Source: Eledone cirrhosa
Taxonomy: Eukaryota
Reading direction: 5' to 3'
Assembly (NCBI GenBank): GCA_964016885.1
Contig: OZ024744.1
Location: forward strand, 9,734,001-9,798,000
Length of the DNA stretch: 64,000 nucleotides
Positions 16,739 to 59,965 of the stretch are shown piece by piece. A program made the translations under genes and the position numbers. Positions within the stretch are counted from its first letter, which is position 1. Each line of letters begins with the position of its first letter. Below the pieces are notes generated by a model, which did no database searches, was not told the DNA's origin, and saw nothing but the letters and a program-made list of their open reading frames with translations.

Positions 16739-16887
16739 GGGCAGATATTTGAAAATTCAAGTCGCAAATTCAGTAGAAAGAGTCTCCAACGATTGGAGTG
16801 CAGGTTGGTCTGCAGCTAAACGACCTAAGTCGATCTCCTGGGATGACGAGATGGAGCTAATTAGAAAACGTGACAATGCGTCTGCAA

Positions 16888-18639
16888 CTATGTTGTGTGA
16901 GCCGGCAATGTGCTGGATATCGTTTGTAAATTGTGCCTTTTCTCTCTGGGCGAATATCTGTCGGCTTTGGCCCTCAAAGCGAAGGTCAACGGTTTGTGGT
17001 CGGTAAAAACCGTAAAATTTCTCCCCTCAAGAATATGAGAGAAATGTTTCACCGACAGATATATGGCTAATAATTCCCGCCCAAACGTGCTATAACGCGT
17101 TTCTGCTGGTTTCAACTTCCTCGAGAAAAATGCCAAAGGTTGTTGGTTTTCAGCGCAAGACTGCTGTAAAACTGCTCCCACAGCGGTATCAGATGCATCA
17201 ACACAAAGCGAAAGCTTGGCCTCTGGTACCGGGTGGGCTAGCAAAGAACTAGCGAGTGCTGTCTTGGCAGACTGGAAGTCCTGAAGCTGTCCTTGTGTCA
17301 AGGAAATGTCTTCATTCTTCTTACGACGATTTTTTAAAATGTCAGTAAGGGAAGATAGCCAATTAGCACAATGAGGAATGAAACGCCTATAGAAATTGAT
17401 TAGGCCTAAGAAGTGACGCAACTGGTGAAGTTTAGTAGGCGGAGGTAACTCCTGTATGGCTTGAACTCGCTGAGGGAGCGGCCTAATACCTTCGGCGTCG
17501 ATGAGGTGGCCTAAAAAATGTAGGGAAGTGGAACCGAAAACACACTTTGCAGGATTTACGCGAACGCGGTAATCCTGAAGTCGCCGAAATAAGAGAAGCA
17601 TGTGGCGCATATGCTCTTCCGGAGAGGAACTAGCGACGAGAATATCGTCTATGTAAGCATAGACGAAGTCCAGACCACGCGTGACCTCGTCTATGAACCG
17701 CTGAAAAGTGCTAGCGGCGTTCCTGAGTCCGAAAGGCATGGTCAAAAATTCGAAGGATCCGAAAGGGGTTGTAATCGCCGTTTTCGGAATATCCTCCTTC
17801 CTGACCGGAATTTGGTGGTAGGCTCGCACTAAATCTAACTTAGAAAAAAGCTTACACCCCTGCAGTGAAGATGCAAAATCGTGGAGATGGGGAATCGGAT
17901 ACCTATCCGGGACGGTCATGGCATTTAACCTCCTATAATCCCCAGTGGATCTCCAGTTGCCGGAAGTCTTGGTCACCATATGTAATGGTGAAGCCCAAGG
18001 ACTCGTAGATGGGCGAATAATGCCCAGCTGCAGCATATGGTCGAACTCGGACCGTGCTGCCTTTAATTTTTCCGCCGGTAAGCGGCGTGGACGCGAAAAC
18101 ACTGGGGCACCGGTGGTGGAAACGAAATGTTCGGTCGAGTGTGTTGGGTCAGTGACTCGAAAATTTCCATCCGTGAGCTCCGGGAAAGAACCCAGCAACG
18201 CATGGTAGGCGTCCCCAGCGGCAGCGACAAAGAATACGGGGCTGACTATTGGAGCATTGGCTTCCTGGCCATGAATTGAACAGCCGGTGATGTTATCCAC
18301 CAGGCGTTGGCCACGGACGTCCACAGTTAAAGAGAAGTTGTGGAGGAAATCCGCTCCTAAGATGGGATATGGCAAATCGGCAACCGTAAAAATCCACTTA
18401 AAATCCCTTCGAAGATTTAGGAATTTAAGAGGAAGCGAGATTTGCCCGTACGTCTTTATAGACGAGTGGTTCACTGCCTGCAGCGTAACAGATGACTCTA
18501 TGGGGGTATCTTTCAGGCAATGGACCGGCCAAATACTACAGGAGGCTCCTGTATCCACGAGGAAACCTCTTCCGGACATTAGGTCCTTAATGAAGAAATG
18601 GCGGTTTGGTGGCTTTATGTTGAGGTCAACTGTCCCCAT
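16888..18639 (-). CDS. pol: Gypsy pol: aspartic protease, reverse transcriptase, RNase H
   Basis: [51 protein letters not shown] slippery GGGAAAC at 18657-18663 puts this ORF in the -1 frame of the gag remnant. Confidence 0.95.
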
Positions 18640-18650
18640 CAGAGGACCTC

Positions 18651-18950
18651 TTAGGCGTTTCCCGCCTTATGAAAGGAGCAAGGTTGCACGCAGTGATTCG
18701 CGTTCTCAGCAAATCGCTCGTGGTACCAGCATAAAGATGAAGCTGGTGACTTAGAACGCCGTCTAAAACTTTGCGATCTCCCGCTACTGCGGGGGCGCGA
18801 ACAGCCACCACACAAGGCCTTCATCTTGTGGAGCTCTATGGTGAGCTCCTGAATGGACCTTTGCATCGCTATAATGGTCGAGCTGTCTGTTGGCGCTGCC
18901 GCGTAGATCGCATGGCCGCGTGTGGCCCGAGCTGGGTGGTGAACACAAGC
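18651..18950 (-). pseudogene. C-terminal remnant of gag
   Basis: SLCWYHERF..C..PC motif ending GNA*. No open gag N-terminal region upstream. Confidence 0.65.
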
Positions 18951-20354: not shown

Positions 20355-21017
20355 AGTTTCTCTCTCAACTCATCACATGTCCATACCATCCCAGTCTTCT
20401 CTCCCACACACTACAACTTATCCCTCTCATACTTAGTTTCTCCCTCAACTCATTACATGTCCATACCTTCTCAGTCTTCCCTCCTGTACACCACAACTTA
20501 TCCCTCTTATACACAGTCTCTCTCAACTCATCACATGTCCATACCATCTCAGTCTTCTCTCCCACACACTACAACTTATCCCTCTTATACAGAGTCTCTC
20601 TCAACTCGTCACATGTCGATACCAATGTTGTCTTCTCTCCCACACACTAAAGTTTATCCCTCTTATACCCAGTTTCCCTCTCAACTCATCACATGTCTGT
20701 ACCAACGCAGTCTTCCCTCCCACACACTACAGCTTATCCTTTTTATACCCAGTTTCTCTCTCAACTCATCACATGTCCATACCATCCCAATCTTCTCTCC
20801 CGCACACTACAACTTATCCCTCTCATACTTAGTTTCTACCTCAACTTATCACATGTCCATACCAACACAATTTTCTCTCCTGTACACCACAAGTTATCCC
20901 TCTTATACACAGTTTCTCTCTCAACACATCACATGTCCATACCATCTCAGTCTTCTCTCCCACACACTACAATTTATCCCTCTTATACACAGTTTCTCTC
21001 TCAACACATCACATGTC
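20355..21017. repeat. 80-bp RTE-derived satellite, continuation
   Basis: Same unit, somewhat more diverged. Confidence 0.95.
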
Positions 21018-22261
21018 ATTCCTCTGTTCAAAAAGGGTGACCGCACATCACCTGTGAACTATCGTCCAGTCAGTCTTATTAGTTGCATCGTCAAACTGAT
21101 GGAATCCTGTGTCAGAGAAACACTTTGGAACTTCTGGAGCTCTCACAGTCTTATCCGGCCCTCGTATTTGGATTTATCCCCAACTCCAGCTGCTGTGATC
21201 AACTTATAGAGTTTCTTGAGGACATCACCCGGATCACTGTTGGCGGCTCATGGGTGGATGTTGTTTACCTTTACTTTGCGAAGGCCTTCAATTCTGTGCC
21301 ACACAAAAGGCTTATGACAAAACTCTCTGCAATGGGTGTGAAGGATGATCTTTTTAACTGGTTGAAGTCCTTCATTCTCAGTCGAAGAGAGGTAGTCACG
21401 GTTCTGGGACAGCATTCCTCACCATATGAGATGTCATCTGGTGTACCACAGGGATCTGTTCTTGGCCCCCTTTTGTTTGTGGCATATATTAATGACATAG
21501 ATGCCAACTTAAGGAATGCCACAGTACTAAAGTACGCAGATGACATCAAGCTGTACCTTGAGATAAAAAGGACAGATCCTGAACACTATAGATCTTGCTT
21601 GCAGTCTGACCTGGACACAATGCAACAGTGGATCTCAGACTGGCAACTCAAGCTAGCTGTGGACAAGTGCCCCACCATGCATTTTGGGAGTAAAAACCCA
21701 GCGTCCACATACTCCCTCCACAGCACTAATATCAAGAAGTCTTCTTGTGAACGTGACCTGGGCATTACGGTCAGCAGCGATTTGCGTTGGACGAAGCACA
21801 TCTCTAAAATTGTCAAGAGGGCCGAGGGTGTCTTAGCATCACTCAGCAAGACCTTTGTCAGCCGCTCTCCAGCTATCTATTTAAGGCTGTACATGGCTAT
21901 GGTGTGGCCACACTTAGAATTTGCATCACCAGTCTGTAACCCCTATCTTGCTCAGAACATTGACCGCCTGGAAACTGTTCAGTGACGTGCAACCAAGTGA
22001 ATACCCTCCATCAGGCATCTACCATACTCTGAACGCCTTGCTTCCCTGGGCATGGATTCATTGAAGTTCCGACGCCTGGCAACTGACTTGGTAAACACCC
22101 ACAAAATTGTTAACCATGTTGCCAACAACAACCCTGAGTACCTTTTTGATTTCCATGTGTCTAACACACGTGGGCATGCCCACAAAGTCAGAAAACAGCA
22201 CAGTTCCCATGACTTTCGGAAACATTTTTTCACGCTCAGAGTTGCTGAAGCATGGAACAAA
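21015..22261 (+). mobile_element. CR1-clade LINE ORF2 (RT) fragment, both ends missing
   Basis: VIPLFKKG..NYRPVSL, FAKAFNSVPH, GVPQGSVLGPLLF, YADD, TRGH..RVAEAWN, with a frameshift and stops. Confidence 0.92.
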
Positions 22262-22784
22262 CCATAACGTATCCCTCTTATACCCAGTTCCCTTTCAACT
22301 CATCACATGTCCAAACCATTTCAGTCTTCTCTCCCACACACCACAACTTATCCCTCTTATACCCAGTTTCTCTCTCAATACATCACATGTCCATACCACC
22401 TCAGTCTTCTCTCCCACACACTACAACTAATCCTTCTTATACACAGTTTCTCTCTCAACACATCACATGTCCATACCATCTCAGTCTTCTCTACCACACA
22501 CTACAACTTATCCCTCTTATACCTAGTGTCTCTCTCAACACATCACATGTCCATACCATCTCAGTCTTCTCTCCTGTACACCATAACCTATCCCTCTTAT
22601 ACCCAGTCTCCCTCTCAACTCATCATATGTCCATACCATCTCAGTCTTCTCTCCCACACACTACAACTTATCCCTCTTATACACAGTTTCTCTCTCAACT
22701 CATCACATGTGCATACCATCTCAGTCTTCTCTCCTGCACACTTCAATTTATCCCTCTTATACCCAGTTTCTCTCTCGACTCATC
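22262..22784. repeat. 80-bp RTE-derived satellite, last units fused to the parent RTE
   Basis: About 6 units. The final unit continues without a break into RTE coding sequence at CATC 22781-22784. Confidence 0.95.
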
Positions 22785-28024: not shown

Positions 28025-28036
28025 CTTAATTTCAAA

Positions 28037-29531
28037 ATGGCGAACAGTGAAGACAACACCCGCAGTACTGATGTAGCTGTAAATGATAGCCAAAATTTAA
28101 GTATTGTCGCTGCTAATGACGGGACTAAATCTGTTAAGGATATTAATGAGAGTCAATCGAGTTCGGTAGATGTTCATTATGATGCAAACAATGCGCCTGA
28201 TTGTGTTAATGTGGACATTAATCCTGTTAAAAATCGCTACAAGTCTAAAAAAACTGGAAGGTTAACATCTTTAAAAGACTATAAAAAAACATGGTTTAAT
28301 CCTCCCAGATATCAATCAAAGTATTTATATTATAAAAACCTTGACAGTTATTTTCCATTACTGACTAGAAGATTCCGATCAGCAATCTTTTTTATTATTC
28401 TCAGTACTATATTATGGAGTATTTTCTGTGGGGTTAACATCGACAAATTAGAATGGTGGTTTTCCTTCATTGTGGTCCTTCTGATTTTCATCGAACTTGC
28501 TTGCCTAGGATTCACATACACCTGGTTCTATCGGAAATTTTACATCATCCCATCAATATTTATGGGGCCTGGAATATGCATCACCATTCTGATAGTCTAT
28601 ATATTTCTTGATAACCCAAACTACGAGGTATCGACATTTGCAGCTTCAGTGACCATCATTATTTTAATGTATACCACCATACCACTGCCCTTAACGTTTA
28701 TATTCCCTGTTGGGATTATCCATTCGACATCTTTGGAAGTTATAAACGTGTTTAAATCCCCATCATCTTTTATTGCCACGGTAATAACCGGAAGGGTTTT
28801 GTTACATCTATGTCTACATATACTTGGTGGTTACTTATACATTATTTTACAAGTGCGACGACATAGTTTATTCCAAAAGCTTCAACAGTCGACACGAAAT
28901 AAACGGACACAGGAGGAAGATAAAAAAATAATTGAACGAATGTTACATTCTCTTATGCCACCCGCTGTTGCTAAAAATGTCATCGATTCTCAGCCTTCTG
29001 GTGATGGGGTTATAACATTCAGACCCTTCCAGATCGATAAAATCGACCATGTTAGCATCCTCTTTGCAGACATTGTGGGTTTCACTAAAATGAGTTCGAA
29101 TAAAACCGCTAAACATCTTGTGGACCTTTTAAGTGATTTATTTGGACGTTTTGATAAACTTTGTGAAACCCTAGGATGTGAAAAAATAAGTACTTTAGGG
29201 GACTGTTACTACTGCGTGTCTGGTTGCCCAGAAGCTAATAAGGACCATGCGAAATGCTGTGTTGAGATGGGCCTTCGTATGATTGAGGCCATACAGGAAT
29301 TTGATAAGGAAAATAACGAACAAGTTAATATGCGAGTTGGGGTCCACACAGGGACAGTCCTTTGTGGGATTGTCGGCTCAAAACAATTTAAATTTGATGT
29401 CTGGTCTAATGATGTTACCCTAGCAAACATCATGGAAGCAACTGGAAAACCTGGACGTGTTCATATTTCTAAAACTTCTTATGAGTACCTTGATGATGAA
29501 TATGAAGTTGAAGAGGGGGAAGACTGCGAAG
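28037..29531 (+). CDS. ADCY9: Adenylate cyclase type 9-like, large first coding exon (N-terminus, M1 transmembrane cluster, C1a catalytic domain)
   Basis: Hydrophobic helices, then VSILFADIVGFTKMSSNK, CEKISTLGDCYYCVSGCP, MRVGVHTGTVLCG, FKFDVWSNDV (AC9-type variants). AAAATGG start context. Donor AG|GTAAG at 29531/29532, phase 1. No later exons were recognised in the window. Confidence 0.92.
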
Positions 29532-29574
29532 GTAAGGTATCACATATTGTTTATTTTTTATTAACGTTTTAATA

Positions 29575-32500
29575 TTTACTGTGAATATGTATATATATAT
29601 ATATAGATTAATGTGAGGTATTATGTGAGGTAAAGCCTTTACTGTGAAAATACAATAGTATATATAGAGTAATGTAAATGTTATGTGAGATATTATGTGA
29701 GGTAAAGCCTTTACTGTGAAAATACAATAGTATATATAGAGTAATGTAAATGTTATGTGAGGTAAAGCCTTTACTGTGAAAATACAATATATATATAGAG
29801 TAATGTAAATGTTCTGTGAGGTTAAGCCTTTACTGTGAAAATACAATAGTATATATAGAGTAATGTAAATATTATGTGAGATATTATGTGAGGTAAAGCC
29901 TTTACTGTGAAAATACGATAGTATATATAGAGTAATGTAAATGTTATGTGAGGTAAAGCCTTTACTGTGAAAATACAATAGTATATATAGAGTAATGTAA
30001 ATGTTATGTGAGGTAAAGCCTTTACTGTGAAAATACAATATATATATAGAGTAATGTAAATGTTCTGTGAGGTTAAGCCCTTACTGTGAAAATACAATAG
30101 TATATATAGAGTAATGTAAATGTTATGTGAGATATTGTGAGGTAAAGCCTTTACTGTGGAAATACAATAGTATATATAGAGTAATGTAAATGTTATGTCA
30201 GGTAAAGCCTTTACTGTGAAAATACAATAGTATATATAGAGTAATGTAAATGTTATGTGAGATGTTATGTGAGGTAAAGACTTTACTGCGAAAATAGAAT
30301 AGTAAATATAGAGTAATGTAAATGTTATGTGAGATATTGTGAGGTAAAGCCTTTACTGTGGAAATACAATAGTATATATAGAGTAATGTAAATGTTATGT
30401 GAGGTAAAGCCCTTACTGTGAAAATACAATAGTATATATAGAGTAATGTAAATGTTATGTGAGGTAAAGCCTTTACTGTGAAAATACAATTGTATATATA
30501 GAGTAATGTAAATGTTATGAGATATTATATGAGGTGAAGCCTTTACTGTGAAAATACAATTGTATATATAGAGTAATGTAAATGTTATGTGAGGTAAAAC
30601 CCTTACTGTGAAAATACAATAGTATATATAGAGTAATGTAAATGTTATGTGAGGTTAAGCCCTTACTGTGACAATACAATAGTATATATAGAGTAATGTA
30701 AATGTTATGTGAGATATTATGTGAGATAAAGCCTTTACTGTGACAATACAATAGTATATATAGAGTAATGCAAATGTTATGGGAGATATTATGTGAGGTA
30801 AAGCCTTTACTGTGAAAATACAATGGTATATATAGAGTAATGTAAATGTTATGTGAGGTAAAGCCTTTACTGTGAAAATACAATAGTATATATATAGAGT
30901 AATGTAAATGTTATGTGAGATATGTGAGGTAAAGCCTTTACCGTGAAAATACAATAGCATATATAGAGTAATGTAAATGTTATGTGAGATATTATGTGAG
31001 GTAAAGCCTTTACTGTGACAATATAATAGTATATATAGAGTAATGTAAATGTTATGTGAGGTAAAGCCTTTATTGTGAAAATACAATAGTATATATAGAG
31101 TAATGTAAATGTTATGAGATATTATGAGGTAAAGCCTTTACTGTGAAAATACAATAGTATATATAGAGTAATGTAAACGTGATGAGATATTGGGTGAGGT
31201 AAAGTCTTTACTGTGAAAATGCTATAGTATATATAGAGTAATGTAAATGTTATGCGAGATATTATGTGAGGTAAAGCCTTTACTGTGAAAATACAATAGT
31301 ATATATAGAGTAATGTAAATGTTATGTGAGATATTATGTGAGGTAAAGCCTTTACTGTGAAAATACAATAGTATATATAGAGTAATGTAAATGTTATGCG
31401 AGATATTATGTGAGGTAAAGCCTTTACTGTGAAAATACAATAGTATATATAGAGTAATGTAAATGTTATGTGAGATATTATGTGAGGTAAAGACTTTACT
31501 GTGAAAATACAATAGTATATATAGAGTAATGTAAATGTTATGTGAGATATTATGTGAGGTAAAGCCTTTACTGTGAAAATACAATAGTATATATAGAGTA
31601 ATGTAAATGTTATGTGAGGTACTATGTGAGGTAAAGCCTTTACTGTGGAAATACAATAGTATATATAGAGTAATGTAAATGTTATGTGAGGTAAAGCCTT
31701 TACTGTGACAATACAATAGTATATATAGAGTAATGTAGATATTATGTGAGGTAAAGCCTTTACTGTGAAAATACAATAGTATATATAGAGTAATGTAAAT
31801 GTTATGTGAGGTACTATGTGAGGTAAAGCCTTTACTGTGTAAATACAATAGTATATATAGAGTAATGTAAATGTTATGTTGGATGTTATGTGAGGTAAAG
31901 CCTTTACTGTGAAAATACAATAGCATATATAGAGTAATGTAAATGTTATGTGAGGTACTATGTGAGGTAAAGCCTTTACTGTGAAAATACAATAGTATAT
32001 ATAGAGTAATGTAAATGTTATGTGAGATATTATGTGAGGTAAAGCCTTTACTGTGAAAATACAATAGTGTATATAGAGTAATGTAAATGTTATGTGAGAT
32101 ATTATGTGAGGTAAAGCCTTCACTGTGAAAATACAATAGTATATATAGAGTAATGTAAATGTTATGTGAGGTACTATGTGAGGTAAAGCCTTTACTGTGT
32201 AAATACAATAGTATATATAGAGTAATGTAAATGTTATGTTGGATATTATGTGAGGTAAAGCCTTTACTGTGAAAATACAATAGCATATATAGAGTAATGT
32301 AAATGTTATGTGAGGTACTATGTGAGGTAAAGCCTTTACTGTGAAAATACAATAGTGTATATAGAGTAATGTAAATGTTATGTGAGATATTATGTGAGGT
32401 AAAGCCTTCACTGTGAAAATACAATAGTATATATAGAGTAATGTAAATGTTATGTGAGATATTATGTGAGGTAAAGCCTTTACTGTGAAAATACAATAGT

Positions 32501-35500
32501 GTATATAGAGTAATGTAAATGTTATGTGAGGTAAAGCCTTCACTGTGAAAATACAATAGTATATATAGAGTAATGTAAATGTTATGTGAGATATTATGTG
32601 AGGTAAAGACTTTACTGTGAAAATACAATAGTATATATAGAGTAATGTAAATGTTATGTGAGATATGTGAGGTAAAGCCTTTACTGTGAAAATACAATAG
32701 TATATATAGAGTAATGTAAATGTTATGTGAGGTAAAGCCTTTACTGTGAAAATACAATATATATATAGAGTAATGTAAATGTTCTGTGAGGTTAAGCCTT
32801 TACTGTGAAAATACAATAGTATATATAGAGTAATGTAAATATTATGTGAGATATTATGTGAGGTAAAGCCTTTACTGTGAAAATACGATAGTATATATAG
32901 AGTAATGTAAATGTTATGTGAGGTAAAGCCTTTACTGTGAAAATACAATAGTATATATAGAGTAATGTAAATGTTCTGTGAGGTTAAGCCCTTACTGTGA
33001 AAATACAATAGTATATATAGAGTAATGTAAATGTTATGTGAGATATTGTGAGGTAAAGCCTTTACTGTGGCAATACAATAGTATATATAGAGTAATGTAA
33101 ATGTTATGTCAGGTAAAGCCTTTACTGTGAAAATACAATAGTATATATAGAGTAATGTAAATGTTATGTGAGATGTTATGTGAGGTAAAGACTTTACTGC
33201 GAAAATAGAATAGTAAATATAGAGTAATGTAAATGTTATGTGAGATATTGTGAGGTAAAGCCTTTACTGTGGAAATACAATAGTATATATAGAGTAATGT
33301 AAATGTTATGTGAGGTAAAGCCCTTACTGTGAAAATACAATAGTATATATAGAGTAATGTAAATGTTATGTGAGGTAAAGCCTTTACTGTGAAAATACAA
33401 TTGTATATATAGAGTAATGTAAATGTTATGAGATATTATATGAGGTGAAGCCTTTACTGTGAAAATACAATTGTATATATAGAGTAATGTAAATGTTATG
33501 TGAGGTAAAACCCTTACTGTGAAAATACAATAGTATATATAGAGTAATGTAAATGTTATGTGAGGTTAAGCCCTTACTGTGACAATACAATAGTATATAT
33601 AGAGTAATGTAAATGTTATGTGAGATATTATGTGAGATAAAGCCTTTACTGTGACAATACAATAGTATATATAGAGTAATGCAAATGTTATGGGAGATAT
33701 TATGTGAGGTAAAGCCTTTACTGTGAAAATACAATGGTATATATAGAGTAATGTAAATGTTATGTGAGGTAAAGCCTTTACTGTGAAAATACAATAGTAT
33801 ATATATAGAGTAATGTAAATGTTATGTGAGATATGTGAGGTAAAGCCTTTACCGTGAAAATACAATAGCATATATAGAGTAATGTAAATGTTATGTGAGA
33901 TATTATGTGAGGTAAAGCCTTTACTGTGACAATATAATAGTATATATAGAGTAATGTAAATGTTATGTGAGGTAAAGCCTTTATTGTGAAAATACAATAG
34001 TATATATAGAGTAATGTAAATGTTATGAGATATTATGAGGTAAAGCCTTTACTGTGAAAATACAATAGTATATATAGAGTAATGTAAACGTGATGAGATA
34101 TTGGGTGAGGTAAAGTCTTTACTGTGAAAATGCTATAGTATATATAGAGTAATGTAAATGTTATGTGAGATATTATGTGAGGTAAAGCCTTTACTGTGAA
34201 AATACAATAGTATATATAGAGTAATGTAAATGTTATGTGAGATATTATGTGAGGTAAAGCCTTTACTGTGAAAATACAATAGTATATATAGAGTAATGTA
34301 AATGTTATGCGAGATATTATGTGAGGTAAAGCCTTTACTGTGAAAATACAATAGTATATATAGAGTAATGTAAATGTTATGTGAGATATTATGTGAAGTA
34401 AAGCCTTTACTGTGAAAATACAATAGTATATATAGAGTAATGTAAATGTTATGTGAGATATTATGTGAGGTAAAGCCTTTACTGTGAAAATACAATAGTT
34501 TATATAGAATAATGTAAATGTTATGTGAGATATTATGTGAAGTAAAGCCTTTACTGTGAAAATACAATAGTATATATAGAGTAATGTAAATGTTATGTGA
34601 GATATTATGTGAGGTAAAGCCTTTACTGTGAAAATACAATAGTATATGTAGAGTAATGTAAATGTTATGTGAGGTAACGCCTTTACTGTGAAAATTCAAT
34701 AGTATATATAGAGTAATGTAAATGTTCTGTGAGGTTAAGCCCTTACTGTGTAAATACAATAGTATATATAGAGTAATGTAAATGTTATGTGAGGTATTGT
34801 GTGAGGTAAAGCCTTTACTGTGTAAATACAATAGTAAATATAGAGTAATGTAAATGTTATGTGAGATATTATGTGAGGTAAAGCCTTTACTGTGAAAATA
34901 CAATAGTATATATAGAGTAATGTGAATGTTATGTGAGATATTGTGAGGTAAAGCCTTTACTGTGGAAATACAATAGTATATAAAGAGCAATGTAAATGTT
35001 ATGTGAGGTAAAGCCTTTACTGTCAAAATACAATAGTATATATAGAGTGTTATGTGAGATATTATGTGAGGTAAAGACTCTACTGCGAAAATAGAATAGT
35101 AAATATAGAGTAATGTGAATGTTATGTGAGATATTGTGAGGTAAAGACTTTACTGTGGAAATACAATAGTATATATAGAGTAATGTAAATGTTATGTGAG
35201 ATATTATGTGAGTTAAAGCCTTTACTGTGAAAATACAATAGTATATATAGAGTAATGTAAACGTCATGTGAGATATTATGTGAGGTAAAGCCTTTACTGT
35301 GAAAATACAATAGTATATATAGAGTAATGTAAATGTTATGTGAGGTATTATGTGAGGTAAAGTCTTTACTGTGAAAATACAATAGTATATATAGAGTAAT
35401 GTAAATGTTATGTGAGATATTATGTGAGATAAAGCCTTTACTGTGAAAATACAATAGTATATAAAGAGTAATGTAAATGTCATACGAGATATTATGTGAG

Positions 35501-35685
35501 GTAAAACCTTTACTGTGAAAATACAATAGTATATATAGAGTCATGTAAATGTTATGTGAGATATTATGTGAGGTAAAGACATTACTGTGAAAATACAATA
35601 GTATATATAGAGTAATGTAAATGTTATGTGAGGTATTATGTGATGTAAAGCCTTTACTGTGACAATACAATAGTATATATAGAGT
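29575..35685. repeat. 60/72-bp AT-rich minisatellite in the adenylate cyclase intron
   Basis: Core GAGGTAAAGCCTTTACTGTGAAAATACAATAGTATATATAGAGTAATGTAAATGTTATGT with an optional 12-bp GAGATATTATGT module. Confidence 0.97.
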
Positions 35686-38600
35686 GATTTCTTTATTTGC
35701 CACTAGGGCACAAAAGGTAGGGACAGATACAAGGGCGGAAGTTTACATATAATTAACGAGTACAAAAATATAACAATGAAATAACAACAACAAACGAAGT
35801 CCTCAATAGGGAGGGGGCATTAACATGGGTCGCACACACCCCGGAAAAAATGTGCGACCCTTCTCCTCAGGAGCACAAAGAGTAGGTGCTTCCCTCGTCT
35901 CCTCTTTTTCCTCGTCTTTCACCTACAGGCTGATATAGAGAGAAGACCCATTCACTCTGGCCATTCTCCCTACTTTCACCCACCTTTCATAAAACTTGCT
36001 GGGGTAGAGCACCTCTCTCTCCATTCTGATCCTTCTTTTAAAACGGTATTTGAAAAAGGGGACCAGTTGTTGGCCGGAGAGAAAGGTGTCTGACCTCAGC
36101 CCTTTCAGCCTCGTCCACCATAGAACTTCTTTAGCCATGGCTATCACACAGAGAAAAACCGCCTCTCCTTCGTTTTTGAAAGGGGGAGGCGGTTTGATCT
36201 TGACAATGGACTCGGTGGTCAACCGGATTGGTCCCACCCTCGACAGTAGTTCCACATAGCCCCACAGGTTAGCAATGCCTGGGCAGTGTACGAATGCGTG
36301 CACAACGGTTTCGTCGTCATGCACGCATCTCGGATAGATCTTATTCAAAGGATCCCTACCCAGGCTCCCATGCCTGTGGAGCTTGTCTCGAACGGGTAGA
36401 GCCCCTCGGTAGCACTGCCAAGCCAGGGACTTTTGGAAGTTGTCCATCGGTCCAGGGCCAAACGTCCTACCAAACAGACTGGCCAGTTCATCTTCCTCCA
36501 TGCCTAGAGCTTCTCCGAGAGCATTGTCACACCTGCTGCGTACCAACTCTCTATAGAATGTCGAGGTGGAGTCTCCACTGATTGCCGGGTCCGCTTTCCA
36601 GAGGGCCGTGAGCGCCTGGGCACATTCAATGTGCCAGTCGCCCACTTTTCTCGGTCTTTGCTTGACCCAGGATTGCAGCTCGGTGAGCGAAACGAGTCTG
36701 GGAAAGGCTCGCCTCACAAACGGGGCCCACACCGGTTGACCAGTGAGGAATACCTGGAGGTGCCGTAGCCTTAATGCGTGTTTACGCATCTGTAGCCACG
36801 GCATCCCCAGCCCTCCTTTCGAAGGGTGTTGACAGCAGATGGATCTCCTCACCAAAGGGGTCCGCTTGTTCCAAAGAAATTGGAACAGCGCGTACTCCAT
36901 TTTGGCGAGTCTTTTCACTGGGCAAGGCACGACGGTCAAGCGGTAGTAGATGACGGATGCTATATAAGTATTCGCCACCTCCGCTCGACCTTTCAGGGAT
37001 AGTTTGCACTGGGCCCACTTCTCGGTCAGTGCAAACACCCTGGCCGTTATCTCGTTCCAGTTTTTCTCCTACTGGAGGTCTGGTCCGAACCAGACCCCAA
37101 GCAGCTTCACCGGGCCCTCCGTCCAGCGTCCGACGACGTTATTGGAGGGCATCGGTTTGCCTCTCCATGTTCCGAGTTGCAAACCAACGGACTTGTCCCG
37201 GTTCAGCTTGGCTCCTGCAAACCTTTCATATTCCTCCAGTAAGGTGCCGATCTCACCGATTTGCGAGGTTTTCGACACCATTACTGTCACGTCATCGGCG
37301 TAGGCCGACGCCGCTTTCTGCAATCCCGGTTCCAAAGGGATGCCCTGCAACCGCTCCAACTTCCGCAGTAGTGGCTCAAGAGCCAGCACATACAGAAGGG
37401 AGGAGAGAGGGCATCCCTGTCGGATGGATCGCATGATTTGGAATGGCCCCGAGAGGTGGCCGTTCACCTTGACCCTTGAGCAGACGTTGCTGCTGTGCAT
37501 CGCAGCAATCCAACCCCTGAAAACGGGTCCGAAGCCTGCCGCCGCGAGCACCGCATCCAGGTAACGATGGTCAACCCTATCGAAAGCTTTAGATTGATCC
37601 AAGTTGATCAGGGCCCCACCAAAGCCGGGTTCATTCCCTACCCTCTCTATGATGTATCGCATAAGGTGGAGATTGTCGTGAATGGACCTGGACGGGATTG
37701 CGCATGTCTGCGCTTCTCCCACCAGGTTTCCGACGACAAGCGCCAACCTCTTCGCTAACACCTTGGCCAAAATCTTTAACTCTGTATTTAGCAGAGTTAT
37801 GGGCCTGAAGTTACTTATGTCATCCCCCTTGTTCTCATCCTTCCTCACCAGCGTAACTACGCCCTTGGTCACAGAACTGGGAATTCTCCCGTTCTGCTGC
37901 CAGTTGCAGTAGACCGCTTCGAGGATATCGGAGAACAAGTCCGGCATCGCTACATATAACTCGTATGGTAGACCATCGAGACCCGGGGATTTGCGTTTGC
38001 CGCATTGGCTCAGCGCCGCCCCTATCTCAGCAGCAGAAATCGGCCTTTAGCAGGACTTTGCCTCCCCGTCCGAGAGGCGCGGCAGACTGTCGAGGTATAG
38101 ATTGAAATCCATAGTCTCACCCGGCGCGCCGCCCCTCCCGAACAGTCGTGCAAAGTGCCGCTGAAAGGCCGCACACATCTGCCCAGGTTCAAGGATCACA
38201 CGCCCATCCTGGTCCTTCAAAGACCGAATCGTGGACTTGTTCCCACTTTTTGCCTCTGTCACTCGGGCCCAGCTCACAGCTTTGGCTCCCTCATTACCCA
38301 GAGCACGTATTTTACTCCTGACATGTACCCATGGGAGGTCGGGTACCCTGTATTACTGCGTGACGCCAGAAGACACACGACCGTGACTTCTGGCGTCACG
38401 CAGTAATACAGGGTACCCGACCTCCCATGGGTACATGCTGAAGCATATAAACAATATGCCCCCCACCGCAAGGTGGTCGTGGAGGTGCCACGGCAAAAAA
38501 GCACCCAGCCCACACTGTAAAGTGGACGTGTAGGCGCCACGAAAAAGCACCCAGCACTCACTGTAAATGAGGTTGGTGTTAGGAAGGGCATCCAGCTGTA

Positions 38601-41951: not shown

Positions 41952-42327
41952 ATGTTATGTGAGATATTATATGAGGTAAAGCCTCTACTGTGAAAATACA
42001 ATAGTATATATAGAGTAATGTAAATGTTATGTGAGGTATTATGTGAGGTAAAGCCTTTACTGTCAAAATACAATAGTATATATAGAGTAATGTAAATGTT
42101 ATGTGAGATATTATGTGAGGTAAAGCCTTTACTGTGAAAATACAATAGTATATATAGAGTAATGTAAATGTTATGTGAGGTATTATGTGAGGTAAAGCCT
42201 TTAATGTGAAAATACAATAGTATATATAGGGTAAAGGCTTTACCTCACATAACATTTACATTACTCTATATATACTATTGTATTTTCACAGTAAAAACTT
42301 TACCTCACATAATATCTCACATAACAT
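41952..42327. repeat. 60/72-bp minisatellite spacer containing the strand-inversion point (about 42230)
   Basis: Forward units run to ..TATATAGG, then reverse-complement units begin GTAAAGGCTTTACCTCAC. Confidence 0.93.
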
Positions 42328-45300: not shown

Positions 45301-47534
45301 GAAGCGGTCTACTGCAACTGGCAGCAGAACAGGAGAATTGCCAGTTCTGTGACCAAGGGCGTAGTTACGCTGGTGAGGAAGGATGAGAACAAGGGGGATG
45401 ACATAGGTAACTTCAGGCCCATAACTCTGCTAAATGCAGAGTTAAAGATTTTGGCCAAGGTGTTAGCGAAGAGGTTGGCACTTGTCGTCGGAAACCTGGT
45501 GGGAGAAGTGCAGACAAGCACAATCCCATCCAGGTCCATTCACGACAATCTCCACCTTATGCGATACATCATAGAGAGGGTAGGGAATGAACCCTGCTTT
45601 GGTGGGGCCCTGATCAACTTGGATCAATCTAAAGCTCTCGATAGGGTTGACCATCGATACCTGGATGCGGTGCTCGCGGCGGCAGGCTTCGGACCCGTTT
45701 TCAGGGGTTGGATTGCTGCAATGCACAGCAGCAACGTCTGCTCAAGGGTCAAGGTGAACGGCCACCTCTCGGAGCCGTTCCAAATCATGCGATCCATCCG
45801 ACAGGGATGCCCTCTCTCCTCCCTTCTGTATGTGCTGGCTCTTGAGCCACTACTGCGAAAGTTGGAGCGGTTGCAGGGCATCCCTTTGGAACCGGGATTG
45901 CAGAAAGCGGCGTCGGCCTACGCCGATGACGTGACAGTAATGATGTCGAAAACCACGCAAATCGGTGAGATTGGCACCTTACTGGAGGAATATGAAAGGT
46001 TTACAGGAGCCAAACTGAACCGGGACAAGTCCGTCGGTTTGCAACTCGGAACATGGAGAGGCAAACCGATGCCCTCCAATAACGTCGTCGGACGTTGGAC
46101 GGAGGGCCCGGTGAAGCTGCTTGGGGTCTGGTTCGGACCAGACCTCCAGGTGGAGAAAAACTGGAACGAGGTAACGGCCAGGGTGTTTGCACTCGCCCAG
46201 AAGTGGGCCCAGTGCAAAACTATCCCTGAAAGGTCGAGCGGAGGTGGCGAACGCTTATATAGCATCCGTCATCTACTACCGCTTGACCGTCGTGCCTTGC
46301 CCAATGAAAAGACTCGCCAAAATGGAGTGCGCGCTGTTCCACTTTCTTTGGAACAAGTGGACCCCTTTGGTGAGGAGATCCATCTGCTGTCAACACCCTT
46401 CGAAAGGAGGGCTGGGGATGCCGTGGCTACAGATGCGTAAACACGCATTAAGGCTACGGCACCTCCAGGTATTCCTCACCGGTCAACCGGCGTGGGCCCC
46501 GTTTGTGAGGCGAGCCTTTCCCAGACTCGTCTCGCTCACCGAGCTGCAATCCTGGGTCAAGCAAAGACCGAGAAAAGTGGGCGACTGGCACATTGAATGT
46601 GCCCAGGCGCTCACGGCCTTCTGGAAAGTGGACCCGGCAATCAGTGGAGATTCCACCTCGACATTCTATAGAGGGTTGGTACGCAGCAGGTGCGACGATG
46701 CTCTTGGAGAAGCTCTAGGCATGGAGGAAGATGAACTGGCCAGTCTGTTTGGTAGGACGTTTGGCCCTGGACCGATGGACAACTTCCAAAAGTCCCTGGC
46801 TTGGCAGTGCTACCGAGGGGCTCTACCCGTTCGAGACAAGCTCCACAGGCATGGGAGCCTGGGTAGGGATCCTTTGAATAAGATCAGTCCAAGATGCGTG
46901 CATGACGGCGAAACCGTTGCGCACGCATTCATACACTGCCCAGGCATTGCTGACCTGTGGGGCTATGTGGAATGACTACTGTCGAGGGTGGGACCAATCC
47001 GGTTGACCACCGAGTCCATTGTCAAGATCAAACCGCCTCCCCCTTTCAAAAACGAAGGAGAGGCGGTTTTTCTCTGTGTGATAGCCATGGCTAAAGAAGT
47101 TGTATGGTGGACGAGGCTGAAATGGCTGAGGTCAGACACCTTTCTCTCCGGCCAACAACTGGTCCGCTTTTTCAAATACCATTTTAAAAGAAGGATCAGT
47201 ATGGAGAGAGAGGTGCTCTACCCCAGCAAGTTTTATGAAAGGTGGGTGAAAGTAGGGAGAATGGCCAGAGTGAATGGGTCTTCTCTCTATATCAGCCTGT
47301 AGGTGAAAGAAGATGAAAAAGAGGAGACGAGGGAAGCACCTACTCTTTGTGCTCCTGAGGAGAAGGGTTGCATATTTTTCCGGGGTGTGTGCGACCCATG
47401 TTAATGTCCCCTCCCTATTGAGGACTTCGTTTGTTGTTATTTCATTTTTATAATTTTGTACTCGTTAATTATACGTAAACTTCCCCCCTTGTATCTGTCC
47501 CTACCTTTTGTGCCCTGGTGGCAAATAAAGAAAT
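42328..47534 (+). mobile_element. Tx1/L1-clade LINE, defective (copy 2, inverted relative to copy 1)
   Basis: Same 5' end (TCGTATACGAGAGA..) and 3' end as copy 1. ORF2 44157-47302 with deletions in ORF1 and the endonuclease and frameshifts. Confidence 0.95.
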
Positions 47535-48095
47535 TACTCTATATATACTATTGTATTTTCACAGTAAAGGCTTTACCTCACATAACATTTACATTACTCT
47601 ATATACCATTGTATTTTCATAGTAAAGGCTTTACCTCACATAATATCTCACATAACATTTACATTACTCTATATATGCTATTGTATTTTCACAGTAAAGG
47701 CTTTACCTCACATAATATCTCATATAACATTTACATTACTCTATATATACTATTGTATGTTCACAGTAAAGGCTTTACCTCACATAATATCTCACATAAC
47801 ATTTACATTACTCTATATACTATTGTATTTTCACAGTAAAGGCTTTACCTCACATAATGTCTCTCATAACATTTATATTACACTATATATACTATTGTAT
47901 TTTCACAGGAAAGGCTTTGCCTCACATAATACCTCACATAACATTTACATTACTCTATATATACTATTGTATTTTCACAGTAAAGGCTTTGCCTCACATA
48001 ATATCTCGCATAACATTTACATTACTCTATATATACTATTGTATTTTCACAGTAAAGGCTTTACCTCACATAATATCTCACATAATCTTCTCACA
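47535..48095. repeat. 60/72-bp minisatellite, reverse orientation
   Basis: Reverse complement of the 29575-35685 unit. Confidence 0.95.
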
Positions 48096-49095: not shown

Positions 49096-49109
49096 CAAAT
49101 ATTTTCTAT

Positions 49110-52072
49110 ACACACAAAATTATTAACCATCTTGCCAACAACAACTATGAGTGCCTTTTGGATTTCCATGTGTCTAACACACGTGGGCATGCCAACAAAG
49201 TCAGAAAACAGCCCAGTTCTCATGACTTTCGGAAACATTTTTTCACATTCAGAGTTGCTGAAGCATGGAACAAACTACCTGCATCAGTTGTTAGCTGTCG
49301 AGACACTGCATCCTTTAAAACCTCCATGGAAAAAACTACCTGCACCAGTTATTAGCTGTCGAGACACTGCATTCTTTAAAACCTCCATGGAACAAACTAC
49401 CTGCATCAGTTGTTAGCTGTCAAGACACTGCATCCTTTAAAACCTCCATGGAACAAACTACCTGCATCAGTTATTAGCTGTCGAGACACTGCATTCTTTA
49501 AAAACTCTATAGAACAAACTACCAGCATCAGTTGTTAGCTGTCGAGACACTGCATCCTTTAAAACCTCCATGGAACAAACTACCTGCATCAGTTGTTAGC
49601 TGTCGAGACACTGCATCCTTTAAAACCTCCATGGAACAAACTACCTGCATCAGTTATTAGCTGTCGAGACACTGCATCCTTTAAAACCTCCATGGAACAA
49701 ACTACCTGCATCTGTTGTTAGCTGTCGAGACACTGCATCCTTTAAAACCTCCATGGAACAAATTACCTGCATCAGTTATTAGCTGTCGAGACACTGCATC
49801 CTTTAAAACCTCCATGGAACAAACTACCTGCATCTGTTGTTAGCTGTCGAGACACTGCATCCTTTAAAACCTCCATGGAACAAATTACCTGCATCAGTTA
49901 TTAGCTGTCGAGACACTGCATTCTTTAAAACCTCTATGGAACAAACTACCAGCATCAGTTGTTAGCTGTCGAGACACTGCATCCTTTAAAACCTCCATGG
50001 AACAAGCTACCTGCATCAGTTATTAGCTGTCGAGACACTGCATCCTTTAAAACCTCCATGGAACAAACTACCTGCATCAGTTGTTAGCTGTCGAGACACT
50101 GCATCCTTTAAAACCTCTATGGAACAAACTACCTGCATCAGCTGTTAGCTGTCGAGACACTGCATCCTTTAAAACCTCCATGGAACAAACTACCTGCATC
50201 AGTTGTTAGCTGTCGAGACACTGCATCCTTTAAAACCTCCATGGAACAAACTACCTAAATCAGTTGTTAGCTGTCGAGACACTGCATCCTTTAAAACCTC
50301 TATGGAACAAACTACCTGCATCAGTTGTTAGCTGTCGAGACACTGCATCTTTTAAAACCTCCATGGAACAAGCTACCTGCATCAGTTATTAGCTGTCGAG
50401 ACACTGCATCCTTTAAAACCTCCATGGAACAAACTACCTGCATCAGTTGTTAGCTGTCGAGACACTGCATCCTTTAAAACCTCTATGGAACAAACTACCT
50501 GCATCAGCTGTTAGCTGTCGAGACACTGCATCCTTTAAAACCTCCATGGAACAAACTACCTGCATCAGTTATTAGCTGTCGAGACACTGCATCCTTTAAA
50601 ACCTCTATGGAACAAACTACCAGCATCAGTTATTAGCTGTCGAGACACTGCATCCTTTAAAACCTCCATGGAACAAACTACCTGCATCAGTTGTTAGCTG
50701 TCGAGACACTGCATCCTTTAAAACCCCCATGGAACAAACTACCTGCACCAGTTGTTAGCTGTCGAGACACTGCATCCTTTAAAACCTCCATGGAACAAAC
50801 TACCTGCACCAGTTGTTAGCTGTCGAGACACTGCATCCTTTAAAACCTCCATGGAACAAACTACCTGCACCAGTTGTTAGCTGTCGAGACTCTGCATCCT
50901 TTAAAACCTCCATGGAACAAACTACCTGCATCAGTTGTTAGCTGTCGAGACACTGCATCCTTTAAAACCTCCATGGAACAAACTACCTGCACCAGTTGTT
51001 AGCTGTCGAGACACTGCATCCTTTAAAACCTCCATGGAACAAACTACCTGCATCAGTTGTTAGCTGTCGAGACACTGCATCCTTTAAAACCTCCATGGAA
51101 CAAACTACCTGCACCAGTTGTTAGCTGTCGAGACACTGCATCCTTTAAAACCTCCATGGAACAAACTACCTGCATCAGTTGTTAGCTGTCGAGACACTGC
51201 ATCCTTTAAAACCTCCATGGAACAAACTACCTGCATCAGTTGTTAGCTGTCGAGATACTGCATCCTTTAAAACCTCCATGGAACAAACTACCTGCATCAG
51301 CTGTTAGCTGTCGAGACACTGCATCCTTTAAAACCTCCATGGAACAAGCTACCTGCATCAGTTGTTAGCTGTCGAGACACTGCATCCTTTAAAACCTCCA
51401 TGGAACAAACTACCTGCATCAGTTGTTAGCTGTCGAGACACTGCATCCTTTAAAACCTCCATGGAACAAACTACCTGCATCAGTTGTTAGCTGTCGAGAC
51501 ACTGCATCCTTTAAAACCTCCATGGAACAAACTACCTGCATCAGTTGTTAGCTGTCGAGACACTGCATCCTTTAAAACCTCCATGGAACAAAACTACCAG
51601 CATCAGTTGTTAGCTGTCGAGACACTGCATCCTTTAAAACCTCCATGGAACAAACTACCTGCATCAGTTGTTAGCTGTCGAGACACTGCATCCTTTAAAA
51701 CCTCCATGGAACAAACTACCTGCATCAGTTATTAGCTGTCGAGACACTGCATCCTTTAAAACCTCCATGGAACAAACTACCTGCATCAGTTGTTAGCTGT
51801 CAAGACACTGCATCCTTTAAAACCTCCATGGAACAAACTACCTGCATCAGTTGTTAGCTGTCAAGACACTGCATCCTTTAAAACCTCCATGCTTCCTGAG
51901 ATTCGCCAACACTACACCTGATATTCCCCCTCCATACACACACATGTATATCATGACTCATACACTATTCACTCCCTTGACATTTGTATATTATTCTATG
52001 TACTATACATGCACCTTTGACGAGTTGTAGTGCACCTGAGCACTGTGCACAATATTTTCATTATTATCATTA
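49110..52072 (+). mobile_element. CR1 LINE 3' end containing an internal tandem expansion
   Basis: HKIINH..TRGH..RVAEAWNK before the array. MLPEIRQHYT*, 3' UTR and ATT-like tail after it. Confidence 0.9.
49264..51891 (+). repeat. 61-bp tandem array, about 43 highly similar copies
   Basis: Unit CATGGAACAAACTACCTGCATCAGTTGTTAGCTGTCGAGACACTGCATCCTTTAAAACCTC. First CATG at 49264, last at 51888. Confidence 0.98.
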
Positions 52073-54511: not shown

Positions 54512-55100
54512 ATATAATAATAATAATAATGAAATTATTGTGTACAGTGCTCAGGTGCACTACAACTCATCAAAGGTGCATGTATAGTACATAGAATAAT
54601 GTACAAATGTCAGGAAAATGAACAGTGTATGAGTCATGATATAATAATAATAACAATAATGAAATATTGTGTACAGTGCCCAGGTGCACCACAACTCATC
54701 AAAAAAGTGCATGTACAGTATATAGGGCAATGCACAAACATCAGTAAAATGAACAGTGCACGAGTCATGATACACACATGTGTGCATGTGTATGGAAGGG
54801 GTACATCAGGTGTAGTTTTGGCGTATTTCGGGAAGCATGAGTGTCTTAAAGGATGCAGTGTCTCGGCAGCTAACAATTGACGCAGGCAGTTTGTTCCATG
54901 CTTCAGCAACTCTGAGCGTGAAAAAATGTCTACGAAAGTCATGGGAGCTGTGCTGTTTTCTGATCTTGTAGGCATGTCCACGTGTGTTAGACACATGGAG
55001 ATCAAAGAGGCGCTCAGGGTTGCAATTGACGAGATGGTTAAAAATTTTGTGGGTATTCACCAAGTCCATTGCCAGACGTCGGAGCTTCAATGAATCCATT
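54512..55100 (-). mobile_element. CR1 LINE 3' end without the expansion; 3' UTR present twice in tandem
   Basis: MDSLKLRRLA..RVAEAWNKLPASIVSCRDTASFKTLMLPEIRQNYT*, followed by two UTR plus (ATT)n tails. Confidence 0.9.
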
Positions 55101-59294: not shown

Positions 59295-59965
59295 ATGTAC
59301 CTAGGAGATCAGATTAAAATGGGAGGGGGGTGTTCCGAGGCCATAGTATCTAGAATAAGGACGGGTTGGAAGAAGTTTAGGGAGCTGCTTCCTCTGCTGA
59401 TAAAGAAGGGTTTCTCTCTGTGTACGAAAGGCCTGGTTATATGATGCCTGTGTGTGGAGCGCGATGCTGCATGGTAGTGAAACATGGGCAGCAACGGCTG
59501 GAGAGAAATGAGGCAAGCATGCGCTGTTGGATGTGCAGTGTAAATGTGTGTGAACGACCCAGCATGGATGTGTTGAGAGAGAAACTGTCTGAGAGGGGTA
59601 GAATGTAGTGTACGGGAGAGGAGACTGAGGTGGTATGGACATGTGATGTGTTGAGAGAGAAACTGTCTGAGAGGGGTAGAATGTAGTGTACGGGAGAGGA
59701 GACTGAGGTGGTATGGACATGTGATGCGCATGGAGGATAACCGATGGGTGAAGAAGTGCCAGGAAATGCCAGTTGAAGGAAGACGTGGTAGAGGTAGACC
59801 ACGAAAAACATGGGCGGAGGAGGTGAGAGCAGACCTCAGATTGTTGAAGCTCATGGTGGAGATGACGAGGGAGTGTGACAAGTGCAGAAATGTGGTGCTG
59901 AATAAGACCTGTCCCAGCCTTGCAAGCAGGGAAAAGCGGACGTAAAATGATGATGATGATGATGA
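59295..59965 (+). mobile_element. RTE LINE 3' portion with an internal 78-bp tandem dimer
   Basis: GWKKFRELL..ERNEASM..RWYGHVMRMEDNRWVKKC..GRPRKTW. Dimer at 59567-59722. Confidence 0.9.

What the first reader, a model, noticed from the sequence alone, without database searches (positions are those of the whole stretch)
49110..52072. Nascent 61-bp satellite inside a CR1 3' end with both parental flanks intact
The parent reads ..GAAG-CATG-GAAC..ACCTC-CATG-CTTCCTGAG. The CATG-to-CATG interval is repeated about 43 times with few variants, then the ORF end and 3' UTR resume in register. The related unexpanded copy at 54806-54905 shows the ancestral state. The unit includes a palindrome-rich centre (TAGCTG TCGA) and two CTGCATC repeats.
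Basis: seen in the sequence. Interest (0 to 1): 0.7.

Follow-up and report, generated by a model that had tools for sequence, protein, structure and literature searches.

The report
Minisatellite spreading between retrotransposon copies
A 61-letter piece of a jumping gene is repeated 43 times here, and the same piece with the same ends is repeated inside at least 860 copies of that gene, mostly near chromosome ends on the three largest chromosomes examined; the repeat likely spreads from copy to copy by recombination rather than arising anew each time, which would show how scattered jumping genes seed satellite DNA.

Summary
In detail: 43 units of 61 bp (49264-51891) sit inside the ORF2 end of a 5'-truncated CR1-like LINE, with both flanks colinear. 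It is not a one-off nascent satellite. The exact junction occurs 17,473 times genome-wide, and 863 LINE copies are expanded against 5,323 single-unit ones. The first 100 listed hold 2 to at least 75 units and cluster at chromosome ends. Expanded hosts are not one clade (AU p=0.00025). All 5 arrays in subfamily-B hosts carry junctions of other subfamilies (0 of 34 B-type). Rare junction types cluster locally (3 of 4 loci within 2.2 Mb), and neighbouring arrays share variants. Best reading (0.6): the junction is passed between dispersed copies by ectopic recombination, then amplified locally. Against it: some arrays match their host throughout, and large arrays have unexplained short 5' flanks. 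The closest published system is the squamate SINE-derived satellites; the transfer evidence is the new part. The scan earlier noted other LINE-born satellites in this genome, but not this sequence.

The parts
49108..49263 (+). 5'-truncated remnant of LINE ORF2 (about 156 bp) upstream of the array
   Evidence: BLAST to a near full-length copy starts at 49108; translation; extent 156
49260..49269 (+). Left arm of a 10-bp inverted repeat centred on the first CATG
   Evidence: the stem appears in MFE and centroid of a single-unit copy
49264..51891 (+). Array of 43 x 61-bp units plus terminal CATG; A-type junctions; one unit carries a 1-bp insertion
51886..51895 (+). Right arm of the 10-bp inverted repeat
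51888..51921 (+). Last codons of ORF2 and stop codon (TGA 51919-51921)
51922..52072 (+). LINE 3' UTR ending in a short ATT-rich tail; no target-site duplication longer than 6 bp found
54613..55099 (-). Single-unit copy of the same LINE family, subfamily B (unit 54840-54900); comparison copy, not the direct parent
   Evidence: 97.3% to B reference L184; 8 of 61 B-type differences

Best explanation
This is one of at least 863 tandem arrays of the same 61-bp interval at the ORF2 end of a CR1-like LINE, concentrated near chromosome ends on the three largest contigs, whose head-to-tail junction likely arose only rarely and is likely passed to other, already inserted copies by ectopic recombination before likely being amplified on the spot. 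Steps: (1) The LINE inserted as ordinary 5'-truncated single-unit copies (single-unit copies shown). (2) One or a few copies duplicated the CATG-to-CATG interval, perhaps helped by the 10-bp inverted repeat (repeat shown, role inferred). (3) A break in a single-unit copy is repaired on an array elsewhere, often nearby on the same chromosome; copying runs across a junction and the recipient keeps its own flanks but gains foreign junctions (mosaic products shown; pathway inferred). (4) Unequal exchange or gene conversion lengthens and homogenises the array, mainly in distal regions (positional bias shown; link to recombination rate inferred). No function is implied; it is most likely selfish or neutral DNA.
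For: Same breakpoints at 863 left-anchored and 779 right-anchored arrays, although 110 other microhomologies are available. Expanded hosts are polyphyletic on flank-only trees: 29 changes in 138 rows and 44 in 172 rows; one clade rejected, p-AU 0.00025. B-flanked hosts: 5 of 5 arrays end in a B-type last unit, yet 0 of their 34 internal junctions are B-type, while 22 of 23 B-flanked singles have a B end. Genome-wide there are 45 B-type junctions against 2,393 B-type 3' ends, and 17,473 A-type junctions against 1,422 A-type ends (the patterns differ in length). B-type junctions cluster: 6 of 11 chromosome-placed loci lie on C12 between 35.9 and 47.3 Mb (p at most 0.009), including a G-flanked host with a B junction 79 kb from a B-junction array. 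A rare junction haplotype occurs at 4 loci, 3 of them within 2.2 Mb on C1, in one B host and one G host, and in 0 of 110 singles examined. Arrays closer than 1, 3 or 10 Mb share propagated variants more than arrays on different contigs (72 arrays; permutation p 0.005, 0.002, 0.001). Position on C1: expanded copies 14 distal and 1 interior, A-type singles 16 and 84 (Fisher p 5e-9); 10 of 11 interior arrays have only 2 units. 17 of 20 right-anchored arrays keep a left LINE flank, which argues against long arrays being retrotransposed whole.
Against: For A-flanked hosts (85 of 95 scored arrays), import, inheritance and fresh duplication give the same junction, so transfer is shown only for the minority. 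Three of 5 G-host arrays and four B-junction arrays (L132, L141, L143, L147) match their host's end type throughout, as in-situ duplication would give; 3 of 25 two-unit arrays are identical or nearly so in their variants (L046, L050, L096). Arrays of 3 or more units have shorter 5' LINE flanks than singles with the same right-flank motif (median 144 bp, n=34, against 379 interior and 525 distal, n=50; p 2.5e-4), with a pile-up at 140-180 bp. This is unexplained and would fit array-bearing RNA from short source copies; B-host arrays show the same trend (250 against 575, p 0.053). The expanded label is clustered on the tree beyond chance (0 of 500 shuffles as low), and starred branches force only 3 changes. 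Whole-region folding is not significant (z -1.4 RNA, -1.0 DNA), and organism B has the junction mostly with B-type ends, where the stem is shorter, so the inverted repeat may be incidental. No recombination map was available; the 45-Mb 'distal' cut was chosen after seeing the data; only C1-C3 were sampled in detail.
Confidence: 0.6

Rival explanations
1. A source element that already carried a short array (2-4 units) retrotransposed many times; the arrays were inherited at insertion and later expanded locally, and ectopic exchange explains only the few mosaics.
For: Short 5' flanks and the 140-180 bp pile-up in array hosts. The expanded label is clustered on the tree. Three G-subfamily hosts on three contigs each have 4 units. 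3 of 20 right-anchored arrays (2 independent) start inside a unit. One breakpoint is explained directly.
Against: One clade rejected. Interior copies of the same subfamily are almost never expanded (1 against 84 on C1), and interior arrays are mostly 2 units, so array-bearing RNA would need a very strong distal insertion bias of its own. The three 4-unit G arrays each carry their own variants across units. No shared 5' end or shared upstream sequence among large arrays. B hosts carry non-B junctions.
Confidence: 0.2
2. The interval duplicates afresh at each locus because the 10-bp inverted repeat with its CATG core is a breakage or slippage hotspot (for example paired nicks joined at CATG), most often in the A subfamily, whose stem is longest.
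For: The inverted repeat brackets the unit exactly and is the only one of 8 bp or more in the ORF-end part of the span scanned. The A stem is 10 bp; B-type ends shorten it, and B hosts are less often expanded (1 of 13 arrays against 23 of 60 singles on C1 0-32 Mb, p 0.049). Some arrays are host-type throughout.
Against: It predicts host-type junctions, but 0 of 34 junctions in B hosts are B-type. It does not predict local clustering of rare junction types. Folding is not significant. B is the younger subfamily (2% against 4.5% divergence), which alone could explain fewer arrays. Organism B has B-type junctions.
Confidence: 0.15
3. One reading: a unique, very recent local duplication at this one locus.
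For: Low unit divergence (3.6%), both flanks intact, and variants weakly clustered along the array (p 0.045), as expected for local growth.
Against: 863 or more loci with the same breakpoints; the junction also occurs in another organism label.
Confidence: 0.03
4. Assembly artefact: collapsed or looped reads in a repeat.
For: The copy number at this locus was not checked with long reads.
Against: Units carry distinct, patterned variants; the 61-bp go-back joint is seen in contigs of runs X1, X4 and X11.
Confidence: 0.02

Closest known systems
SINE-derived satellites (sSat3) of snakes and other squamates, PMC10702118 (abstract and sections 5, 18, 19 read)
   Same: A fixed internal segment (67 nt in snakes) of a dispersed retroelement is tandemly repeated at up to thousands of loci, with the same unit limits, hundreds of units at most, and a subtelomeric bias that is stronger for long arrays while the parent element is evenly spread.
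   Different: The host here is a LINE and the unit is ORF2 coding sequence. Most arrays here keep both parental flanks, whereas in squamates one extended end is the rule and two a minor variant. The sections read invoke unequal recombination and concerted evolution but do not use subfamily markers to show junction transfer between loci; the supplements were not seen.
Alu- and other TE-derived multilocus minisatellites in human, PMC3389668 (parts 1-2 of 4 read); Jurka and Gentles 2006 and Haber and Louis 1998 seen only as cited in PMC6947457 (passages)
   Same: A TE segment flanked by short direct repeats is duplicated and then expanded locally; an incomplete terminal unit (here the final CATG).
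   Different: In human only 185 of 5,932 clusters are multilocus, and Alu-derived arrays average about 2.3-2.4 units. Here one interval dominates 14% of anchored family copies, with a median of 8 units. The microhomology is 4 bp rather than 5-10 bp.
[quoted passage not shown]
   Same: The same repeat family expands from within many dispersed copies of one retroelement.
   Different: Hexamer or shorter units; a SINE or LTR host; original papers not read.
CR1-derived satellites of chicken (HinfI repeat; CR1-C centromeric repeats), as listed in PMC9659126 and PMC6947457 (passages)
   Same: Tandem repeat containing CR1 ORF2 and 3' sequence.
   Different: As listed, these are satellites containing a CR1 fragment, some centromeric; they are not described there as hundreds of dispersed arrays each nested in its own LINE copy.

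Membership tests
CR1 clade LINE (host) | ORF2 with APE endonuclease and reverse transcriptase domains | tested here: met
   Relatives L194 and L184: Exo_endo_phos E 1e-16, RVT_1 E 1.7e-36; no RNase H family was hit in the 711-aa frame
CR1 clade LINE (host) | ORF2 similar to vertebrate CR1 through to the C-terminus | tested here: met
   The best hits named for an animal are a stork and a turtle RT protein; 38% identity over 481 aa including the unit's own codons. That bird LINEs are mostly CR1 is recalled, not from a call
CR1 clade LINE (host) | Placement inside CR1 rather than L2 or another Jockey-group clade on an RT tree with reference elements | not testable with these tools
   No labelled reference LINE set was available, so 'CR1-like' is used
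CR1 clade LINE (host) | Simple-repeat 3' tail, frequent 5' truncation, little or no TSD (features recalled) | tested here: met
   ATT-rich tail; truncation in most copies; no TSD over 6 bp at this locus
TE-derived multilocus minisatellite (sSat-like) | Unit is a fixed internal segment of a dispersed retroelement at many loci | tested here: met
TE-derived multilocus minisatellite (sSat-like) | Subtelomeric bias, stronger for long arrays, with the parent element spread evenly | tested here: met
   89 of 100 within 45 Mb of a contig end; rho -0.34 for copies against distance; singles spread along C1. Contig ends are taken as chromosome ends
TE-derived multilocus minisatellite (sSat-like) | Units more alike within arrays than between parent copies | tested here: met
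   4.5% median within arrays of 5 or more units against 8.2% among 34 single A/G units
sSat in the strict sense | Derived from a SINE | tested here: not met
   The host is a LINE ORF2 end
Retroelement with an inherited internal VNTR (SVA- or LTR12-like) | Array-bearing copies form a clade and are spread like the family | tested here: not met
   AU p 0.00025; positional bias p 5e-9. A short-array source contributing part of the copies is not excluded
Polymorphic VNTR | Copy number varies among individuals | not testable with these tools
   Only short contigs and RAD-seq runs were offered

The most novel reading that the evidence does not exclude
A 'contagious' satellite: one tandem junction behaves like a passive homing allele within a LINE family. 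It converts single-unit copies, including copies of younger subfamilies, into expanding arrays by short-range ectopic repair in distal chromosome arms, so that a dispersed retrotransposon family is being turned into a dispersed satellite family copy by copy, with donor-recipient pairs readable from subfamily markers.
Probability: 0.5. Interest if true: 0.7.

Novelty: new variant of a known kind. Interest (0 to 1): 0.52.

Why it matters
How the same tandem repeat comes to sit in hundreds of separate transposon copies is open: repeated birth, inheritance from a master, or spread between loci. Here thousands of copies of known subfamily, with and without the array, along whole chromosomes, form a natural experiment. 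Subfamily markers separate the three routes and already show foreign junctions in some hosts. If transfer is the main route, it gives a direct model for the first step of satellite DNA evolution and a way to measure ectopic gene conversion by distance in an animal genome. The arrays would also be hundreds of candidate length-polymorphic markers. No host function is suggested.

Tried and rejected
Pfam on the short ORF ends found 0 families for 2 of 2 proteins; the domains were obtained from long relatives instead. A TSD search at the locus gave nothing over 6 bp. The attempt to show that the LINE splits an older element failed: the right flank matches 47084-47286 and 35939-36141 at 73%, but the left flank aligns no better than shuffles. 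Hairpin stability was not significant; the stem is reported only as present. A shared 5' end or shared upstream sequence among large arrays, which would mark a short master, was not found. A subfamily explanation for the short 5' flanks failed. TRF on 60 single-unit copies found no tandem repeat of period 20 or more inside the LINE part; the listed hits lie upstream of the homology. The donor search for L089 was inconclusive because its haplotype also occurs in 7 of 110 singles. The end-type classifier flagged 7 B-like ends inside four A hosts, probably point changes or frame offsets; these were not used. No 61-bp joint was listed for runs X6 and X8 (only 15 of 177 joints shown) or for X7, X10 and X12; contigs cannot show absence. 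X11 laid only 10 contigs. Seven literature searches listed no paper on this repeat or on subfamily-marked junction transfer; only titles and abstract starts were seen for unread papers, and most subscription papers are not held. One paper id was not held. The scan's notes had nothing by sequence.

Full report
Observation. The window holds 43 head-to-tail units of 61 bp at 49264-51891 (TRF 43.1 copies, 96% matches; 41 spacings of 61 bp and one of 62). About 156 bp of LINE ORF2 precede it, and the last codons, stop, 3' UTR and an ATT-rich tail follow it. The minus-strand copy near 54.6-55.1 kb has one unit but belongs to another subfamily (8 of 61 differences).

Host. Long relatives from the same genome encode an endonuclease and a reverse transcriptase. 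The best hits named for an animal are bird and turtle RT proteins, aligning through the unit's own codons. This fits CR1; the clade was not tested against labelled references, so I write CR1-like. The genome (G000, 3.0 Gb) is unnamed; earlier notes of the scan call it probably an octopus, which I did not test.

Not unique. The exact head-to-tail junction occurs 17,473 times (control 0), at least about 1.07 Mb. With the same left anchor, 863 copies continue into a second unit and 5,323 do not; 779 arrays match a right anchor. I fetched the first 100 listed expanded loci (25 on C1, 48 on C2, 27 on C3): they hold 2 to at least 75 units, median 8. The 61-bp go-back joint is also seen in public runs of organism A (X1), organism B (X4, mostly with B-type ends) and, in 2 contigs, organism H.

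Position. 89 of the 100 lie within 45 Mb of a contig end (cut chosen after seeing the data). On C1, expanded copies number 14 in 0-45 Mb and 1 in 45-387 Mb, while A-type singles number 16 and 84 (Fisher p 5e-9; the two patterns differ in stringency). Ten of 11 interior arrays have two units, and copy number falls with distance from the end (rho -0.34). That distal regions recombine more is inferred; no map was available.

One master? Trees of flanks only used 81 of 101 arrays and 57 of 60 singles; rows with under 60 bp of left flank, open arrays and two with broken ends were dropped. They need 29 changes of state, or 44 after adding 34 further singles and leaving out one long-branch row. That is fewer than shuffled (44 and 57), so the label is clustered, but one clade is rejected (p-AU 0.00025). 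Of 20 right-anchored C1 arrays absent from the left list (20 of 22 fetched), 16 have a left LINE flank by BLAST and one by eye; three start inside a unit, two of them duplicates of each other. Long arrays therefore were not copied whole through RNA.

Fresh duplication or transfer? Three flank types (A, B, G) go with three unit-end types in single copies (55 of 60 concordant). Duplication in place should give host-type junctions. In B hosts, 5 of 5 arrays end in a B-type last unit but 0 of 34 internal junctions are B-type. B-type junctions are rare (45 matches against 2,393 B-type 3' ends), and 6 of their 11 chromosome-placed loci lie within 11.4 Mb on C12 (p at most 0.009). One of them is a G host with a B junction, 79 kb from a B-junction array. 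A rare junction haplotype occurs at four loci, three within 2.2 Mb on C1, in a B host and a G host. Across 72 arrays, neighbours share propagated variants more than arrays on different contigs (p 0.001-0.005); segmental duplication was not excluded for every pair. B is the younger subfamily, so transfer happened after B copies inserted.

What counts against. 85 of 95 scored arrays are in A hosts, where the three routes look alike. Three G-host arrays and several B-junction arrays match their host throughout. Arrays of three or more units have short 5' flanks (median 144 bp, n=34, against 379 and 525 for 50 singles with the same right motif; p 2.5e-4), with a pile-up at 140-180 bp. I cannot explain this. 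B hosts with arrays show the same trend (p 0.053), which suggests an effect of host length rather than of array-bearing RNA, but this is weak. The inverted repeat folds as a stem but not beyond shuffles, and organism B has the junction with the shorter stem, so its role is open.

Mechanism. Most likely (0.6): rare origin of the junction, ectopic repair that copies junctions into other family members, mostly nearby and distally, then local amplification. The window's own array shows weak clustering of variants along its length (p 0.045), as local growth predicts. Rivals: a short-array source element (0.2) and recurrent duplication at the inverted repeat (0.15); a mixture is probable.

Comparison. 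It works like the SINE-derived satellites of squamates (PMC10702118; abstract and sections 5, 18, 19 read), which also have a fixed unit, many loci and a subtelomeric bias; it is not a member, as the host is a LINE. Human TE-derived minisatellites (PMC3389668, first half read), the mouse B1 VNTR family and chicken CR1 satellites (passages in PMC6947457 and PMC9659126) are further relatives; PMC10294476 (passages) lists CR1 among mollusc LINE clades. Seven searches showed no report of this repeat or of subfamily-marked junction transfer, within the limits of the library.

Verdict. Real, and larger than reported. The kind of thing is known; the readable evidence of copy-to-copy spread is the new part. 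New variant of a known kind; interest 0.52.

Noticed in passing
window 54514-54772: The B-subfamily copy carries a two-copy tandem duplication (131 bp, 86%) of its 3' UTR end.
   Followed up: no
window 21014-22262: A third, longer copy of the same LINE family (89% to L184) stops 12 bp into the 61-bp unit and is followed directly by the 80-bp satellite at 22266.
   Followed up: partly
window 3049-14457, 20355-21017, 22266-22784, 59563-59726: A large 80-bp satellite with strong strand skew, in several blocks.
   Followed up: no
window 29611-35685, 41952-42234, 47577-48085: 72-bp minisatellite blocks flanking two oppositely oriented RT-bearing elements (about 36-41 kb and 43-47 kb); earlier scan notes describe a Tx1-like LINE in such a repeat.
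   Followed up: no
window 28025-29569: An uninterrupted 515-aa frame with an adenylate/guanylate cyclase domain (E 1.4e-60), unusual as a single long exon in this repeat-rich stretch.
   Followed up: partly
window 15533-18666 (minus): LTR-type retroelement frames with RT, RNase H and integrase domains.
   Followed up: no
L132 (G000:C4, 99.147-99.173 Mb): A B-type array is repeated five times within a larger tandem block with spacings of 5.5-8.6 kb.
   Followed up: no
L045 and L115 (G000:C1 332.4 Mb, C3 235.7 Mb): Two interior two-unit copies on different contigs are sisters on the flank tree (support 98) and share unit variants, a possible case of an inherited two-unit source.
   Followed up: no
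L184, L194: B-subfamily copies are young (about 2% divergence) with long ORF2 frames of 604 and 711 aa, so the family was active recently.
   Followed up: partly
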